This document shows positions 7,622 to 55,179 of a stretch of 64,000 nt of DNA, in pieces. The position numbers and the translations under genes are program-made. The stretch's first letter is position 1, and each line of letters begins with the position of its first letter. The stretch is from the NCBI RefSeq assembly GCF_009914755.1, contig NC_060938.1; one strand, given 5' to 3'. The notes beneath the pieces are model-generated. The model made no database searches. It was not told where the DNA came from and saw nothing but the letters and a program-made list of their open reading frames with translations. This DNA is from the human T2T-CHM13v2.0 reference genome, Homo sapiens.

Positions 7622-7734
7622 CTTGGGGACAGGGGAAGTATATCAGTTATTTATTGCTGCACAACGAAGTGATGGCTTATAACAACAATTTATTTTTCGT
7701 GATTCAGTGGGTTGACTCAGAAGTTTACCCCAAG
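7622..7734. repeat. Dispersed direct duplication of 9358-9464
   Basis: About 90% identical by eye: both read gggacaggggaagtatatcagttatttattgctgc...gattcagtgggttgactcagaagttt. Confidence 0.9.
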
Positions 7735-7854
7735 TTAGACTGAAAAAGAAATGAGAGCAGAATCCAGGACCACAAAAATTAGGCTTTGGTACTTTTAGGT
7801 GAAAATTTTGGACTTAACACTTTAACACTTGAAAGGGCCTCTTCATTGTGGTTT

Positions 7855-8372: not shown

Positions 8373-9374
8373 GATGTCCACATCATTCCATAGCTCTGTG
8401 ACAAACAGACACAGGCCCTTAGAGAGGAGGTGCACATATAGCATTGACTGTGTCTGGTGGTGTGTTTGGGAAGGGTGTCAGCAGAGCCTGGGTCACCCTT
8501 CCTTAGACATAGGATTATTCTAGCCATAAGTGTGAGGAGAAAAAATAGCTTTGAGGTAAGGTGGTCAAATAGGACTGCTGATTTCTTTGGAATCCAACTG
8601 CTTGAGTCAAGAAGGGATTGCCTTTTTGAAATTGCTGGCAGACAGGAGCTCCCAGCTAATCCCTCCTCTGTACACATGTGGACCCTTAAGATGAGTTCCT
8701 TGGATGCTAGGATTCCAGATAGAAGTAAATATCTTTAGGCAGCCATGTTGACCCCAGAAATTAGTGCCAGGGACTTTCTTAAAGAGGATTCTAAGATTTT
8801 CTGGAATTCCTGAAGAAAAGTAGATGAGGAGCACTGAGAAGAAGAAGTACGTCTCAGGTCACCCAGTTAAATTTGAATTTCAGTGCTCCTTCTCCTTTTC
8901 AGTGACACAAAGGGAGACAGAAAGAGAGATATTAGACTCTCCCTTTTAATCCAGAATCTTCGGTAACTGGAAGACAAGTTGTAGTCTACCAACAGCTGAA
9001 ATTCATGGAGGCAAGAATGAGTGAGAAGATAGCAAAAAAGAAAGCTGTTCATGGCTTAGAAAGCAGGTCTCATCCAATGGACTGTACGGGTTTCTGGGAG
9101 AGAATCATGCCTTGGAAATATCCGTTCATCAAAAGCATAGTTTGCATCTGCAAGCCCGAAGGGAAACTGAGAAAACCAGCCACCAATTTGGCAGGCAACA
9201 GAATTGTCTCCTCCAAGATAGTGAGTGGAGGAGAGAAGGCTGCCTTTTCCCAAGAGGACCAGTCCAGCCCTTGTTAGGCCATCTCCGAAGATGTATGTTT
9301 CCTTTACCAGGTGTAGCCTTACAGGAAGGGACTCTTTGGAGTGAAGCCAAGTGTCTACTTTGGGACAGGGGAAG

Positions 9375-9875
9375 TATATCAGTTATTTATTGCTGCATAA
9401 CAGATGGCTTATAACTACAATTATTTTTCATGATTCAGTGGGTTGACTCAGAAGTTTGCCCCAGGTCTATTGCTGGGGTCACTTATGCAGCTGCATTCAT
9501 CTGGCAGATAGGCTGGGTTTCATCAAGGTCTCTCTCACACATCCAGGGCCTTAGTGTTGACTGGAGGCTGAGACCCTTGGTTCTCCTCCATGTGGCTTCT
9601 CGTCTTCCAGGGTCTCTTCTTGCGGCTCCTCAAACCAGAAAGATGGCCTGGGTTTCCTGATAGCATGTTGGCTGGGTTCTAAAAGAATGAAAATAGAAAT
9701 TGTTAGGCTTCTTCAGGGCAAGACCTGTAACTGACACAGCATCACTTAAGCCCACTTCTGTTGGTCAAAGCAAGTCTAAAGGCCCAGCCAGATTCATGGA
9801 GAGGAGAAATAGATGATATCTCTTGATTTGATGGGTGGTGTGATTGGCAGCCACATTCGAAGGCAAACTGTTATA
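9375..9875 (-). mobile_element. MLT1 (MaLR, H/G-like) solo LTR
   Basis: Starts 'tatatcagttatttattgctgcataac'; contains 'cagcatcact...ctgttggtcaaagcaagtc...ggcccagccagattca' typical of MLT1. Confidence 0.8.
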
Positions 9876-24712: not shown

Positions 24713-26075
24713 AACAGAGCCTTTACATACGCTGTTCCCTCTACCTAGAATGCTTTTCCTTTTCTCCTTTTCTGAGATTTTACGGATACGTCATTTATCA
24801 ATCTTTAATACATGATTGGTAAGGAGAGTTGAGGCATTCAGAGAATCATATAACCGTAATAGGAAAAGGGCTAGCTCCAGCTGCTTCCAGCACTAGGCAA
24901 CAGTTGAGCTCCTTCATTCATTGTAGCATTCAGGTTTGTTCCATTTGTGGTGGAAGTTGGCTAAGTCTGAGGGCAACTTTAAACTTTCCTTTAAAGGCAG
25001 CCTCAGAGACAGGTGGCGAAAAATCTTAACTTAGTTCTGGAGAATGTTTGATGAGAGAGGAGAATTTTACAACTGTGATTGCAAAGGGAAAGGCCAATTG
25101 TTGACACAGAAATTCTCACCCACTTTGCCTTCATGGGCTTGGTTGGCCCTCTCTCTTCTCTGATGATCTTACAAGCCTTAAAAAATCTCTGGATCCTAAC
25201 TTTCTGGATATTACGTAGATGTGATTTATCCAGGGTCACCCAGTGAGTTAATAAGAGAGATGGGACTAGAATCCAAGCCTCTTGACAACTAGTCCAGCTT
25301 GCCCTTATTCTCCTGATGAGGAATATGGGCAAGTCAGGAATAGATATGAGATATTTCAATTCTATGCCTCACCTCAAACATCCACAAGGAACCAAATATA
25401 CATTACTTTCCTCAATCCTAGAAAGGAACAAACTTGGGACTCCTCCCAGGTCTTCAGTGACTCCCATACCCCTTTAGTCCTTGCTTCCACCTTTGAATTC
25501 TCTGCTTTTGCATTCACCCAGTCTCCCTCCAAGTGGAAACTCATTCCTCGGGGTAATCAATGTCCCTCTCAGCCAGAACCCCGTTACCAGGGAAACCATT
25601 CCAGGCAGCCGACTTTGACTCATTGAGATGCAGCTGCAGAACCCAGGGCCTGTGTAAGGGCAACTGCTATCAGAGTGGGCAGTTTTTGGCAACTCTGGAG
25701 TGTATTGTACCAAATGGGACATAGTAATTATGTATTTGTGGCTTTCATTATATGCCAGTTTAATTGTCACAAATTCATTGTTGTTTCTAAGTTTTTATTT
25801 TATTTTTTTCTGGACTACTCAGCAAAAAAGGGAAATTGGTGCCATAGGGCAGGTGTCTTTCTGGAAGAGACACTCACTTGGATGAAAAAATAAATGCAGT
25901 GACTTAACGTCATTTGATTGGTCAGGAAATTTTCCCTATATGGCAGGGGAACAACCCTGACATGGGTGCCTCTGGGCCCTCACCAAGGGCCTAGAGCTGT
26001 GTCAATATGAAAATCGACAATAGAAGGTGAATTGGGTTTGACATGATGGGCTGTCATCCCCCTTGAAGACAGGGG

Positions 26076-26455
26076 TGTATTAGTCAGTTTTCATGCTGCT
26101 GATAAAGACATACCTGCGACTTGGCAGTTTACAAAGGAAAGAGATTTAATGAAGAACTCGTGGTTTCACGTGGCTAAGGAAGCCTCACAATCATGGGGGA
26201 AGACAAGGAGGAGCAAGTCACATCTTATGTGGATGGCAGCAGGCAGAGAGAGAGAACTTGTGCGGGCAAACTCCCTTTTTATTTTTAAACCATCGGATCT
26301 CACGAAACTCATTCACTATCAAGAGAACAGCGCAGGAAAGGCCCGCCGCCATAAATCAGTCACCTCCCACCAGGTTCTTCCCACCACATGTGGGAATTGT
26401 GGGAGTTACAATTCTAGATGAGATTTGGATGGGGACACAGAGCCATATCATATCA
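26076..26455 (-). mobile_element. THE1 (B/C) solo LTR
   Basis: 'tgtattagtcagttttcatgctgctgataaagacatacc ... ggggacacagagccatatcatatca'; 5-bp TSD agggg/aggga. Confidence 0.95.
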
Positions 26456-34850: not shown

Positions 34851-35168
34851 TAATACCACCAATAAATAGTAACAATTATTAAGAAAGATGATTCCATTTC
34901 CCATGCAGGTTACCTGGGCTAATGGTGTGTCCAACTGAGGTAGCTCTGAGAGAGCTTTCTGTCTCTGTCTCTTTTGGCCGCCCAGATGGTTATCAGGTCA
35001 TTATTGTGCTTGATATTTAATTTTTTAATTAAAGTGCACATTTAATAAAAAATTTGTGTTTAAAATTAGTGCCCATCTGCTGAAAATATTAGAACTTATA
35101 GAAAAACATAAAAGAAGTAATTTCCCATAATTCCACTATTCAGACACAATGACTTTTAGCATGTTGGC

Positions 35169-35514
35169 TGTATTAGTTTGCTTTCATGCTGCTGATAAAG
35201 ACATATCCATAAGACTGGGAAGAAAAAGAGTCTTATGGCTGGGGAGGCCTCACAATTACGGTGGAAGGCAAAGAGGAGCAAGTCACATCTTACATGGATG
35301 GTGGCAGGCAAAGAGAGAGAGCTTGTGCAGGGAAACTCCCATTCTTAAAACTAATAGATCTTGTGAGACTTATTCACTATCATGAGAACAGCATGGAAAA
35401 GACCCACCTCCATGATTCAATTACCTCCCACTGGGTTCCTCCCATAACAGGTGGGAATTGTGAGAGTTACAATTCAATATGAGATCTGGGCGTGGACACA
35501 GCCAAGCCATATCA
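35169..35514 (-). mobile_element. THE1 (B/C) solo LTR
   Basis: 'tgtattagtttgctttcatgctgctgataaagacat ... ggacacagccaagccatatca'; 5-bp TSD ttggc/ttggt. Confidence 0.95.
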
Positions 35515-40479: not shown

Positions 40480-40660
40480 AGTAGGTATTGTTCTAAGCCA
40501 TAATTTATGTTAACACTTTTTATCTTCATTGAAACCATAGAAGACAGGCACTAGTATTATCCCCATTTTACAGAACACAGAGGCACAGTGAGTGACTTGT
40601 CTACAAGTCATGGGTACCAATGACTAGACATTCTGGCTTCAAAGTCTATCCTCTTAATAT
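40480..40660 (-). mobile_element. MIR
   Basis: 'aggcactagtattatccccattttacagaacacagaggcacagtgagtgacttgtc'. Confidence 0.75.
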
Positions 40661-40741
40661 TGTACACACAATGACAGAATTACAGTCTACAGAATTGCAG
40701 AACAGTATGAGAGAGTTTGTCCTTAGAAAAAAGCATATTTA

Positions 40742-40916
40742 TTTTCTTTCTTTTTTTTTAAAACAAGGATATCCACATTTTATTGTTTTCCTTTTATCTG
40801 ATTCTGAAAAAAAAAAATTTACCAGAACTATGTATTTTTTCCTGTGGATATAATCATCAGGCTAATCCCTACGATGACTAAAAGTTGTGGTGGTTGCATG
40901 GTCACCAACTTCTCTC
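40742..40916 (-). other. Putative L1 3'-transduced segment with its own poly(A) signal and tail
   Basis: Unique sequence 40760-40916 between two poly-T tracts; tttatt (AATAAA on minus) at 40779-40784, 19 nt from the poly-T ending at 40759; lies inside the Alu TSD pair. Confidence 0.75.
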
Positions 40917-40983
40917 TTTTTTCTTTTCTTTTCTTTTTTTTTTTAATTTTATTATTATTATACTTTAAGTTTTAGGGTACATG
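40917..40983 (-). mobile_element. Extremely 5'-truncated young L1 (L1HS/L1PA2-5 type) 3' tip plus poly(A)
   Basis: 'attattattatactttaagttttagggtacatg' is the reverse complement of the young L1PA 3' terminus. Confidence 0.9.
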
Positions 40984-41266
40984 CTTGTTTGTTTGTCTGA
41001 TGGAGACTTGCTCTGTTGCCCAGGCTGGAGTGCAGTTCACTGCAGCCTCTGCCTCCTGGGTTCAAGCAATTCTCCTGCCTCAGCCTCCTGAGTAGCTGGG
41101 ATCACAGGCACCCACCACCATGCCTGGCTAATTTTTTTGTATTTTTAGTAGAGATAGGGTTTCACCATGTTGGCCAGGCTGGTCTCCCACTCCTGACCTC
41201 AAGTGATCCACCTACCTTGGTTTCCCAAAGTGCTAGGATTACAGACATAAGCCACTGCACCTGGCT
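40984..41266 (-). mobile_element. AluS (Sz/Sx-like) with a small right-arm deletion
   Basis: Reverse dimer; 'tgcagt|tcactgc' lacks ~14 nt; TSD aaaagcatattt at 41268-41279 with partner at 40729-40740. Confidence 0.95.
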
Positions 41267-43141
41267 GAAAAGCATATTTTCTGAGTTAGAACTTCCTGGA
41301 TTTAATTTCTGACTCCATCACTTGCAACATATTGGTGCTGTGCATGTTATTAGAATGATTTGAGGTCATCTAAATATTAAGGATATGCTAAGGTATGTTG
41401 AAAACATCATGCAGAGTTACACATAGTAGGGTTCAAATATTCATTTCTAACTTTTCTTTCATTAAAGAGTTCCTCTTCCTCTTGAATAAAATTAAGTAAA
41501 ATAAGTATGCTATAAAAAATAAAAGGCAATGTATCATAACACGGTAGACATTAGAAGAAGACAGTTGTCACTAGTAGGGCAAGAAACCTAGGTAGAATAA
41601 TGAAGCTGAGGTAGAATAATGAAGTTCTGGGTTAAAGTACCAAAGGCTGTCAAATATTCATGGCATCACCATGGCTCTGGGCTTACTGAAAAGGAAGTAT
41701 CTAAAATTGGTATGCAGGCTCAAGGCTCAGATAACCTTGTCCTGTTCAAACCTTTAACAGTTGAAGTATCTCAAATATATTAAACATTGGAGGTCGAGAA
41801 TGCCAAGTCAAAAGCAAAAGGGAGCCTTTTACAGTGGATATGTGTGTTTCTCTGAAGTCTAAAGTCAGAGGGGACAGTGGTTGTAGGTAGGTTGGGAACA
41901 AGAAAGATGAGGTGGGGAAGATGTCGTTTAGAGTGTGGCAACCTCAGGCAGTTAGCCTCAAAGCATTTACCAAAGAGGAAGAACAAACACTATAGCAGTA
42001 GCCCAAGGAAACTCTTCTTTCTGGATCCTCTTTTTGAGCTGCTGAGCTGATATTCCACCTGTGTGGAGATAGCTTAGTGCAAAACAGCTGGGTTTTGAAT
42101 ATGTAAACACTCACCGGAAATCTGTAAATCAGGGGTAAAGCCATGTGGTTGTGTATCTTTTCTATGGTACCTGCAAACTACAGCTGTTCATGGAGACAGT
42201 GCTTGTATTATGTGGCTGTGGGTGTCTCCTGGATGGAACATAGATAGATAGTGCCTATTCTTTCCTCAATGTGGTGATCCAACAGCAAAGGAAGGACTGC
42301 TGGATGTGTAGGAGTGGGAGGAGGAGAAAGTGGTGTGATGGAAATGCAAGGCAGAAAGGGAATGGCTGGTGCCATCTGCAAGGGAGATGGAGCCCTCCTG
42401 AATTCCTGGCAGAGCTATTGAGATGAAATTGATAAGGAAAGTGAGAACTCATCACCCACATATACTGTATTATCTCTGAGAGAGAAAAAAAGACCTGTCT
42501 GTAATGAGCTTTTAGCTTGCATCTGAAGGAGTCTGCTAACTTGAGCTACCAGAATAATATTTGCCATATTCTTTTTAAAAAATATTGGTTTTTATTTTGT
42601 GCTTTAATTCAGTGTTAAGTGAGTTGTTGACTTTTTTGGTTTGTTTAAAAAAGAAGTTAAACAGTTGGAATCCCATGTAGGCATAAAAGTGGGGTTCTAA
42701 AAACTAGGTCCGTCCTGGGTCCTAACACTTCCCACATATAGATACGTGTTTAGTGACAGTGGGCATTAGAACAGCTAATTAATAACTAATACCGTAAATA
42801 TTATATATTAGGATCTAGGATTCTCTGGTCATGTACCATGTTAGAGAAACAACTTCTGAAGTGCTATAGGTTGAGCTAGAAGTGTTTATGTGCCTAAGTG
42901 TGCTTTAGGTACTCCAAGCAAATCTTTAGTATAAGTTTTATGGTTGTTTATTACTTAAAATAGGAAAGCTTCACTAATAGAGTGGTTGTTATAAGTAAGG
43001 GTTAGAGAGAGCATATTAAGTTATACCTGGGAGTTTATAGTTCTTTAAATCTTGTCAAACTGTATTATTCTTTTAAATATGTCATATGACAGTTTATAAT
43101 TATTGTGAATACTTTAAAAAGCTGGTGGTGAATACGTTACA

Positions 43142-44500: not shown

Positions 44501-44634
44501 AATAAATTAAGGTCCCCAGCTTTTCCCCTTCTCATGACTCCCAAGGAACCCTAAAAAGGATAAACCTACATGGTTCAGTGTTAGTGAAAATTCTTTTTTT
44601 AAAAATTTTTGCTGGTTCAACTTCTTCCTCCTTG

Positions 44635-44636
<2 letters not shown>

Positions 44637-44670
<34 letters not shown>
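44637..44670. repeat. (AC)17 microsatellite
   Basis: Perfect dinucleotide run. Confidence 0.98.
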
Positions 44671-44672
<2 letters not shown>

Positions 44673-44807
44673 ATTCTCCTAAAGATAATATCATCTCTGC
44701 TAGATCCATTCTTTGAGATTTGTGATACAGCACTGAAAGACTGAGAAGAAAGAGAGAATTAAAGTAGCAGGACTAAAAATGGGCATGTTTAGCCAGGGAG
44801 GCATCAT

Positions 44808-47135: not shown

Positions 47136-47218
47136 TCAAATCATTAAACCAAATGAAAATGTAACATATTAAAATTTGTGAAACTCAGCCAAAGCAATGC
47201 TGAGAAAGACAGTTATGT

Positions 47219-47346
47219 AGCTAAATACATACATTAGAAAAGAGGAAAAGTCTCAAATCAATAATCAAACTCACATCTTAAAAGCTAAATACATACATTA
47301 GAAAAGAGGAAAAGTCTCAAATCAATAATCAAACTCACATCTTAAA
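47219..47346. repeat. Perfect 64-bp tandem duplication
   Basis: 47219-47282 is identical to 47283-47346. Confidence 0.97.
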
Positions 47347-53406: not shown

Positions 53407-53919
53407 GATTCTGCAATCGCTCAGGTCTCTTTCAAATATACCATTCGGTGATTCCATAACTCTAAGATTTAGAATGCTGCTCGTTTTATCCGTATGTATT
53501 TTTTGCACCCCACTCTAGACTTTAAGACGTTGGATCTTGATTCAGCATGTAGCTAATTAAGAAATTTGATTAAACTTTATTTTCTTTCACCTTAAAAAAA
53601 ATGAAACCAGGGAAATCAAACACTGCAGAAGCCTCAACATTTTCTCTGTCATTCTTTATTAGTTAATGGTTGTCCCATATGCAAACTGGCCAGAAAAATC
53701 TGCTAAAGAATTGAGAGGAAATTTGATTGAAGTAAAACAAGGACTCACTCCCTTCTAAGAAACAACATACTTTATATATGTCATGTGGTTTCACACACAC
53801 AAATAAAAAAAATGAAAGGAAATAAATCAAAATGCTAATGAGGGATACTTTTGGATAATAGGGCTATGGGCAATTTTGAATTTTTTTTTAAACTTCTTCC
53901 TATTTTCTGAACTTTAAGC

Positions 53920-53920
<1 letters not shown>

Positions 53921-53952
<32 letters not shown>
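53921..53952. repeat. (AC)16 microsatellite
   Basis: Perfect dinucleotide run, within a probable old L1ME 3' fragment (~53800-53980). Confidence 0.98.
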
Positions 53953-53955
<3 letters not shown>

Positions 53956-55179
53956 TATAAAACTTCCTAATCATAAAAAATTATGAAAAGTGAACACATT
54001 TGCAAGCCAAAGTAATTAAGTTAATTTAAAAAGTTATTAAGTCAGCACAAAAAATTGAAATTAATTGTGTTAAAAATAGTGTTCTATTGACTTTAAACCC
54101 AATGAGCCAGCACAGTTATAAATCTAAGCACCCACAATTCCTGAACTTATAGAGAATAACCTCTTACCCCTTCTTATGATGAATGTGCCTTATTTCTCCA
54201 GGGACAGAAGGCCAGTGATTGGGAAATATTCTATGTATGAAATGGCAGTTCTACTGGTCACCCATACAGGAAAGGATTCACTATTTTGGATGACGTTTGG
54301 CTTAGTGCAGATGTTTAAATCAGTAATAGATTCAACTTACACATCTAAGAATCCTCTTCTTTCTTAGTACCACACCCTGGACCTTCTCACAAGGTTTAGA
54401 AGGTAAGACACTCTTTATTCCTCCATTTACTGCAGTCTTGTCCTAGTGACACCTACAAGGAAGCACTTGGTAAATGCTACGAGATCCAAATGTCAAGACT
54501 GAACCTTTAGGACTACCTGTGACAATTGTTAGACCACAGCTTACCCTTTGACTCCTGTGAAAATCAAGGAGGGTGAGGAGCAACTGAAGAAAAGTCCTCT
54601 GATTTTTATTCCTTTTTTACTTCTATAAGGAGCTCTAAGGTATTAGATTTTTTTTTTTAACTGGCAAAACAAAAGAGCAAAAAAAAGTCCCATTTTCAGT
54701 ATCTGACTGTCTCCTTAAAGAGAGACGGGAGGATAATAGAGGGATAGATAGATGCGGGCAGACAGAAACAGTTACAGTAGCCAGACAGATCTATATTCAG
54801 TTTATTATATTTGATTTTCAGAGTTAATTGAGTGTTTTGCCTTAAAATTATCTTTTTCTTCCTCTTTCTCTCTTTGCTGTAATTTAAAAGGAGATAGATA
54901 AAGGCAAAGAAAAATCAATTTAAAAGTTTGCTTTTCAAAGTTGTTCCATGGTCTTAGGGGTCATTAATTCAAAGCTAGCACCAGGTAGTCAGAGGCAGAT
55001 GGCTTTATTGTACCCCTGTGATGAAGGTTCTTTGTGACTGTAGGTGAAGGGAAGAACAGGAAGGTGGAAGAGTGTCGCTTATAGCATCTTACCAAGGGAC
55101 CCAGAAGTCTTATATATTGTCTCTTATGGGTCTTAGTTTAACATCAGATCTTCATGTTCTGCCTAGCATGATGATGCCT

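What the first reader, a model, noticed from the sequence alone, without database searches (positions are those of the whole stretch)
40729..41279. Hidden L1 3' transduction: young L1 tip plus ~157 bp of foreign DNA with a second poly(A), inside an Alu tail
Seen: read on the minus strand, the order is AluS (41266-40984), a 33-nt young-L1 3' tip (40983-40951), poly(A) 1 (~40950-40917), unique DNA (40916-40760) with AATAAA 19 nt before its end, then poly(A) 2 (40759-40742). The Alu's TSD aaaagcatattt (41268-41279) is not beside the Alu tail but 243 bp away at 40729-40740, so everything between is inserted. The flanks also appear to rejoin into a MIR 5' end. Known: L1 transcripts read through their weak poly(A) site and carry 3' flank, giving this double-tail structure, and Alu A-tails are L1 endonuclease targets. 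Inference: a later L1PA transduction landed in an older Alu tail, and 40760-40916 is a barcode of its source L1 elsewhere in the genome. A repeat annotation would probably show only a tiny L1 and an Alu.
Basis: partly seen in the sequence, partly recalled or inferred. Interest (0 to 1): 0.8.

Follow-up and report, generated by a model that had tools for sequence, protein, structure and literature searches.

The report
Truncated L1 transduction inside Alu tail
An old Alu repeat in an intron of NRXN3 carries in its tail a tiny LINE-1 insertion that dragged along about 180 bases copied from chromosome 11; it is an ordinary but neatly traceable relic of retrotransposition.

Summary
On the minus strand, one perfect 12-bp target-site duplication (41279-41268 and 40740-40729) encloses five parts:
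- a full-length AluS-like element;
- a 33-nt LINE-1 3' tip;
- an A-run;
- 178-184 nt of foreign DNA ending 19 nt after AATAAA;
- a second A-tail.

The foreign DNA has exactly one other copy in this genome, at contig 11:15012152-15012335 (10 mismatches in 184). That copy runs on into unique DNA, with no poly(A) there.

Two corrections:
- The parent site has no L1. It lies behind an old AluJ-like tail, and no L1 was found within about 10 kb on either side.

Rough dating puts the Alu at about twice the age of the L1 and transduced part (one-sided p about 0.006-0.05).

Best reading (about 0.6): a severely 5'-truncated L1PA copy with a 3' transduction, from a source L1 now lost, nested later in the Alu tail. 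Main rival (about 0.27): a single-event Alu/L1 chimera, a kind already catalogued.

This is a new member of a known kind, with no function expected. Primate orthologues would settle it.

The parts
41268..41279 (-). Target-site duplication, upstream copy (minus strand AAATATGCTTTT). One extra C at 41267 separates it from the Alu.
   Evidence: D5, 12 of 12 identical.
40997..41266 (-). Body of a full-length AluS-like SINE with a 14-nt internal deletion in the right arm.
   Evidence: aligns end to end with 17 other Alu copies and differs at 38/287 = 13.2% from their majority; non-CpG 15/230 = 6.5%, CpG columns 14/38 changed; best non-self genome matches are 82-86% identical over the full length, and none shares the deletion. 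The S-type label rests on recall.
40984..40996 (-). Degenerate remnant of the Alu A-tail (ACAAACAAACAAG). It forms the 5' junction of the L1 piece.
40951..40983 (-). 3' terminal 33 nt of an L1PA element (extreme 5' truncation).
   Evidence: 17,506 genome matches to its first 30 nt at up to 1 mismatch, control 0; 12 of 12 loci show L1 3' UTR upstream and an A tail downstream; in the window the likeness to those loci starts exactly at 40983. L1 ORF1, EN and RT domains upstream of such a tip.
40938..40950 (-). A-run (AAAATTAAAAAAA) not found at the contig-11 parent. Read as the A-tail of the source L1 copy, carried in the read-through RNA.
   Evidence: The assignment to a source L1 is inference.
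40760..40937 (-). 178 nt copied from contig 11:15012152-15012329. It starts with a GAAAA-rich stretch (40937-40917). The six A at 40759-40754 also match the parent, so their origin is ambiguous.
   Evidence: E 5.5e-61, 94%; alignment; 10 mismatches in 184 ungapped positions.
40779..40784 (-). AATAAA polyadenylation signal, 19 nt before the last copied non-A base. The same hexamer is present at the parent.
40741..40759 (-). Second A-tail (A9 GAAAGAAAAT). The parent has AAAAAATCAACAAT here. On the nested reading, the last 10 nt may be the rest of the Alu tail.
   Evidence: The split into new tail and old Alu tail is inference.
40729..40740 (-). Target-site duplication, downstream copy.

Best explanation
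Two successive L1-driven insertions share one visible TSD.

1. A full-length AluS inserted into this NRXN3 intron, antisense to the gene, and made the 12-bp TSD.
2. Much later, an L1PA element sat on contig 11 at an A-rich site between 15012151 and 15012152 (top strand GC/AAAAG). It was transcribed past its own weak poly(A) signal and polyadenylated after the next AATAAA, about 180 nt downstream.
3. ORF2p nicked the T-rich strand opposite the Alu A-tail here and primed on the RNA's poly(A).
4. It copied the 178-184 nt of contig-11 flank, then the source L1's A-run, then only 33 nt of L1, and stopped.
5. The result is a 243-nt 'partnered' 3' transduction with extreme 5' truncation, nested in the Alu tail.
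6. The source L1 was never fixed or was later lost, so the contig-11 site is empty today.

Shown: the anatomy, the unique parent locus, the direction of copying (an A-tail only in the window copy) and the L1 identity of the tip.

Inferred: the former L1 on contig 11, the two-step order and the lack of function.
For: - Parent locus and direction. The likeness to contig 11 ends on one side within the A-rich stretch next to the L1 tip, and on the other side at the AATAAA-plus-19 site.
- The copied segment begins AAAAG at the parent. That is an L1-endonuclease-like site in the notation of Law & Burns Table S4, where YC/AAAA is scored as an EN motif.
- L1 tip identity.
- Age order, Alu: non-CpG divergence 15/230 = 6.5% and CpG columns 37% changed. 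Both lie inside the range of 15 other S-like copies (5.0-9.4% and 23-48%).
- Age order, younger part: the transduced segment differs from its parent at 10/184, about 2.7% per lineage. The 33-nt tip has no difference from the common form. Binomial p = 0.006-0.046.
- L1 copies with exactly this tip differ pairwise by a median of 6.0% over their last 300 nt (11 of 12 copies kept). That is close to the 5.4% between the transduced segment and its parent.
- No Alu among the 40 scored candidates shares the 14-nt deletion or comes closer than 86% over the full length. The Alu's changes therefore look post-insertional.
- Truncated L1s that carry transduced DNA from a source absent from the reference are described as 'proxy elements' (PMC13009371, passages).
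Against: - No L1 lies at or within about 10 kb of the parent site in this genome, so the source element is postulated, not seen.
- No sibling transductions exist.
- No second TSD can be pointed to. CAAA-type repeats lie 5' of the L1 piece and GAAA-type repeats lie 3' of it.
- The age contrast is weak. If about 5 of the Alu's differences came from its source gene or from my mixed-subfamily majority, p rises to 0.09-0.17.
- Alu DNA may also mutate faster than the other parts.
- One TSD around everything is equally what a single event predicts.
Confidence: 0.6

Rival explanations
1. A single-event Alu/L1 chimera. One TPRT event started on the poly(A) of the contig-11 L1 read-through RNA and copied the flank, the A-run and 33 nt of L1. 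It then continued on an Alu RNA, by template switch or by prior RNA ligation, to the Alu's first base. That makes one insertion with one TSD.
For: - One perfect 12-bp TSD bounds the whole composite and no second TSD is visible.
- The Alu is full-length, in sense orientation and directly 5' of an L1 3' segment. This is the architecture of the 452 Alu/LINE-1 chimeras of Law & Burns 2026 (PMC13174262, section 12 read), 33% of which involve AluS.
- The locus is missing from their Table S4: 7 chr14 rows, all at or below 65.9 Mb in hg38. This says nothing either way. Their TSD search reaches only 75 bp past the L1 3' end, and here the TSD lies 211 nt past it.
Against: - The Alu looks about twice as old as the L1 plus transduced part.
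- In the published set, 82.8% of chimeras join subfamilies that were active at the same time.
- If all parts were as old as the Alu, about 15-20 mismatches to contig 11 would be expected. 10 are seen (my arithmetic).
- The Alu has no close sibling copies that would point to a late-active, already-decayed source (40 of 4,268 candidates scored).
Confidence: 0.27
2. There was never an L1 on contig 11. A Pol II transcript crossing the AluJ-like tail there ended at the AATAAA site and was reverse-transcribed in trans. At its A-rich stretch the enzyme switched to the poly(A) of an L1 RNA. It then stopped, which gives the nested version, or switched again to an Alu RNA, which gives a three-template chimera.
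For: - The parent site is empty and no L1 is nearby.
- The 5' limit of the likeness lies in an A-rich stretch where a T-rich cDNA end could re-anneal to any poly(A).
- Double template jumps have been proposed for LINE enzymes (PMC2104539, seen in a search listing only).
Against: - It needs one or two template switches within 250 nt, plus an unknown transcript. I have no evidence for a gene on that strand and did not test for one.
- The order L1 tip, A-run, then flank starting at an AAAAG site is the textbook read-through signature, and a source L1 that did not survive explains it more simply.
Confidence: 0.1
3. DNA-level rearrangement, assembly artefact or chance resemblance.
For: None found.
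Against: - The window copy ends in an A-tail 19 nt after AATAAA, whereas the parent continues in unique DNA.
- It begins at an L1 tip plus A-run.
- A perfect TSD is present.
- The match to contig 11 has E = 5.5e-61.
Confidence: 0.03

Closest known systems
Partnered L1 3' transduction, including 'proxy elements' (truncated L1 with transduced DNA whose source L1 is absent from the reference; PMC13009371, passages read)
   Same: L1 3' end, then an A-run, then a unique flank from another locus, then a second A-tail after a downstream AATAAA. The flank names the source site, and the source L1 is not in the assembly.
   Different: - Only 33 nt of L1 survive, so it is close to an orphan transduction.
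- The event is old (about 2.7% per lineage) and fixed, not somatic or polymorphic.
- It sits inside an Alu tail, so its own TSD cannot be seen.
Alu/LINE-1 chimeric insertions (Law & Burns 2026, PMC13174262; sections 10, 12, 19 and 34 and the chr14 rows of Table S4 read)
   Same: A full-length sense Alu lies directly 5' of a 5'-truncated L1 3' end, and the whole is bounded by one TSD of at least 7 bp with an acceptable EN-type site.
   Different: - Arrival at the same time is untested here.
- The Alu seems older than the L1 part.
- The L1 part carries a 3' transduction, which the sections I read do not describe for chimeras.
- The locus is not in their table.
Nested sense insertions into A-rich stretches of Alu (Levy et al. 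2010, PMC2836564, passages read)
   Same: A sense-oriented L1-driven insertion into an A-rich stretch, using the opposite T-run as primer and leaving little or no TSD.
   Different: The passages read concern Alu-into-Alu insertions at the middle A-rich linker. Here the guest is an L1 transduction and the site is the terminal tail.

Membership tests
L1 3' transduction (offspring copy) | An L1 3' terminus lies directly 5' of the foreign segment, separated from it by an A-run. | tested here: met
L1 3' transduction (offspring copy) | The foreign segment is colinear with a unique locus elsewhere. | tested here: met
   (2 places in the genome: self and contig 11). (184 ungapped positions, 10 mismatches).
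L1 3' transduction (offspring copy) | The foreign segment ends shortly after a poly(A) signal, with an A-tail that the parent locus does not encode. | tested here: met
   AATAAA is shared. The window continues as A9 GAAAGAAAAT and the parent as AAAAAATCAACAAT.
L1 3' transduction (offspring copy) | A source L1 stands directly upstream of the parent segment. This is corroborating rather than defining, because sources absent from a reference are documented. | tested here: not met
   (an AluJ-like element and its tail lie upstream). (0 hits of a 6.1-kb L1 in 23,101 nt).
L1 3' transduction (offspring copy) | The insertion is flanked by its own TSD. | tested here: inconclusive
   A-rich but unlike sequences lie on the two sides. 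A short or absent TSD is expected in A-rich targets.
Alu/LINE-1 chimeric insertion | A sense-oriented Alu abuts the 5' end of an L1 3' segment, and one TSD of at least 7 bp bounds both. | tested here: met
   Criteria taken.
Alu/LINE-1 chimeric insertion | Alu and L1 arrive at the same time across species (always present together or absent together). | not testable with these tools
   No other primate genome is held (state that the genome has no relatives here).
Alu/LINE-1 chimeric insertion | The parts have matching ages. | tested here: inconclusive
   The Alu is about twice as diverged, with p from 0.006 to 0.17 depending on the counts accepted.
Alu SINE insertion | A full-length dimeric Alu with an A-tail and a TSD at its 5' end. 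| tested here: met
   no hit for the rebuilt empty site in 141 kb of held DNA; only a self hit in the genome; ambiguous alignment to one MIR-like copy. No MIR model is on hand.

The most novel reading that the evidence does not exclude
The composite is a single TPRT event: an Alu/L1 chimera whose L1 half is a read-through transcript. Its 3' transduction would then name the exact genomic source (contig 11:15012151/2) of the L1 RNA that recombined with an Alu RNA. Published chimera screens would miss such a case, because the TSD lies more than 75 bp past the L1 end.
Probability: 0.27. Interest if true: 0.4.

Novelty: new member of a known kind. Interest (0 to 1): 0.2.

Why it matters
- It is a clean worked example of a 'hidden' transduction. 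A repeat annotation would show an Alu and at most a tiny L1, yet the 178-184 nt in between record an L1 source on contig 11 that no longer exists in this genome.
- Such relics can serve as presence/absence markers in ape phylogeny, and they help in cataloguing extinct source elements.
- It also exposes a blind spot of chimera screens that look for TSDs only close to the L1 end.
- No effect on NRXN3 is expected. The insert is deep in an intron, lies antisense to the gene, and its AATAAA is on the non-coding strand (inference).

Tried and rejected
1. Is the window's Alu a copy of the Alu that stands upstream of the contig-11 parent? Rejected. Identity is 70% over 262 nt and it is the most diverged copy of the set.
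2. Pfam on four open frames next to two L1 tips gave 0 of 4 hits. Frames further upstream were needed (3 of 5 with hits).
3. The MIR empty-site test was tried three ways and was uninformative.
4. A look for the locus in Table S4 of Law & Burns found it absent, but the absence is uninformative.
5. I had recalled that the tip variant with G at position 12 marks the youngest L1s. The data say the opposite: pairwise distance is 10.0% for the G form and 6.0% for the A form. I dropped the recalled idea.
6. 'Alu inserted after the L1 piece' is rejected. The TSD abuts the Alu 5' end, and the Alu is the more diverged part.
8. No complex or structure prediction was relevant.

Full report
**Anatomy**

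I read 40500-41500 on the minus strand. The order is as follows.

| Window position | Part |
|---|---|
| 41279-41268 | TSD AAATATGCTTTT |
| 41267 | one extra C |
| 41266-40997 | full-length Alu body |
| 40996-40984 | degenerate Alu tail ACAAACAAACAAG |
| 40983-40951 | 33 nt that end in TAATAATAAT |
| 40950-40938 | A-run AAAATTAAAAAAA |
| 40937-40917 | GAAAA-rich stretch |
| 40916-40760 | non-repetitive DNA, with AATAAA at 40784-40779 |
| 40759-40741 | A9 GAAAGAAAAT |
| 40740-40729 | the same 12-mer as the first TSD |

- The repeat finder reports the 12-mer pair as 12 of 12 identical (D5).
- The whole 64-kb window has only 13 exact 12-mer direct-repeat pairs 300-800 nt apart. A pair that abuts an Alu 5' end and an A-tail is therefore not chance.

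**The 33 nt are an L1 3' end**

- The first 30 nt match 17,506 places in the genome at up to 1 mismatch (8,758 forward, 8,748 reverse). The reversed control matches 0.
- In 12 of 12 loci fetched, the 30-mer follows one shared sequence and is followed by an A-rich tail. In the window, the likeness to those loci begins exactly at 40983, and an Alu tail stands before it.
- Open frames right next to two tips gave no Pfam hit (0 of 4).
- Upstream of the tip in L012, locus L019 carries Transposase_22 (1.7e-61) with its dsRBD, Exo_endo_phos (4.2e-17) and RVT_1 (2e-46). Hits came from 3 of 5 frames.

**The parent locus**

- Alignment with the flanks shows that the likeness starts 21 nt earlier, at AAAAGAAAAGAAAAGAAAAAA. 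It ends at TTGTTTT followed by up to six A.
- Ungapped, window 40937-40754 against contig 11:15012152-15012335 gives 10 mismatches in 184. Three of them are adjacent.
- Past that point the parent reads TCAACAAT and continues as unique DNA, while the window has an A-tail.
- The window copy is therefore a retro-copy of an RNA that was polyadenylated 19-25 nt after the shared AATAAA.

**What stands upstream at the parent**

- There is no L1. An AluJ-like element (L002 1154-1425) with a GAAA/GGAA-rich tail precedes the segment.
- That Alu is not the window's Alu: 70% identity, and the most diverged of the set.
- A 6.1-kb L1 query found nothing in 23,101 nt (contig 11:15000700-15023800) at E up to 1e-5.
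- The junction at the parent reads GC/AAAAG on the top strand. That is an endonuclease-type site by the scoring of Law & Burns' Table S4, where YC/AAAA counts as a motif.

**One event or two**

Published work offers both models.

- Law & Burns 2026 (PMC13174262; I read sections 10, 12, 19 and 34 and the chr14 rows of Table S4) list 452 single-event Alu/LINE-1 chimeras.
  - Most have a full-length sense Alu 5' of an L1 3' part within one TSD.
  - 82.8% join subfamilies that were active at the same time.
  - The present locus is not among their 7 chr14 rows. Their TSD search stops 75 bp past the L1 end, and here the TSD lies 211 nt past it, so the absence says nothing.
- Levy et al. [quoted passage not shown] The lack of a second TSD therefore does not argue against nesting.

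**Dating**

*The Alu*
Two very diverged copies were dropped from the majority.
- The 15 other copies range from 5.0-9.4% and from 23-48%. With CpG sites included it is 38/287 = 13.2%.
- Of 4,268 genome candidates, 40 were scored. The best non-self matches are 82-86% identical over the full length (89-90% for two partial ones), and none shares the 14-nt deletion.

*The L1 and transduced part*
- The transduced part differs from its parent by 5.4%, about 2.7% per lineage. The 33-nt tip has no change.
- L1 copies with exactly this tip differ pairwise by a median of 6.0% over their last 300 nt (11 of 12 kept).
- Copies with G at tip position 12 differ by 10.0% (21 of 29 kept). There are 1,658 exact copies with a non-A base at that position.

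*Comparison*
- A binomial comparison of the Alu against the transduced part plus tip gives p = 0.017. The range is 0.006-0.046 under other reasonable counts. It rises to 0.09-0.17 if five of the Alu's differences are discounted.
- At the 0.17% per Myr used by Law & Burns, this is very roughly 16 Myr against 38 Myr.
- The majority sequence mixes subfamilies and Alu DNA may evolve faster, so I treat this as moderate evidence that the Alu is older.

**Verdict**

| Reading | Odds |
|---|---|
| Later, extremely 5'-truncated L1PA copy with a 178-184-nt 3' transduction, nested in the tail of an older AluS; source L1 on contig 11 has not survived | about 0.6 |
| Single-event Alu/L1 chimera | about 0.27 |
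| No L1 ever on contig 11; template switching from a host transcript | about 0.1 |
| Artefact or DNA-level event | about 0.03 |

- The lost-source situation is the one described for 'proxy elements' (PMC13009371, passages).
- No sibling transductions exist in this genome.
- The kind is known, and the instance is new as far as my searches went (and Table S4).
- No function is expected.

**Not done or not possible**

- No primate orthologues were available.
- No curated Alu, L1 or MIR models were on hand.
- The MIR claim remains untested.
- Gene annotation of the contig-11 site was not available.

Noticed in passing
window 7622-7735 and 9358-9466: A two-part direct repeat (44 and 46 nt blocks, 93-95% identical) spaced 1,731-1,736 nt apart. 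It could be an LTR pair or a local duplication.
   Followed up: partly
window 47190-47317: A tandem duplication of a 64-nt unit (78% identical) right after an Alu tail (D15).
   Followed up: no
window 26073-26278 and 35166-35343: Two blocks 84-90% identical, about 9.07-9.09 kb apart in direct orientation (D14 and D18). They are probably two copies of one interspersed repeat.
   Followed up: no
L002 1420-1508 (contig 11:15012092-15012180): The tail of the AluJ-like element at the parent locus has grown into a GGAA/GAAA microsatellite. The postulated L1 target lies at its end.
   Followed up: partly
loci L003-L014 and L020-L049: L1 copies whose 3' tip has A at position 12 are less diverged from each other (median 6.0%) than copies with G (10.0%). 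This is the opposite of what I had recalled. There are 1,658 exact non-A copies, against 17,506 matches at up to 1 mismatch to the A form.
   Followed up: partly
window 44629-44688 and 53915-53976: Two (CA)n microsatellites (D12).
   Followed up: no
window 40828-40904: According to the hub's table, this is the only stretch of the composite left unmasked in NCBI's file. The masked blocks 40726-40827 and 40905-41272 cover A- and T-runs as well as the Alu and the L1 tip.
   Followed up: no
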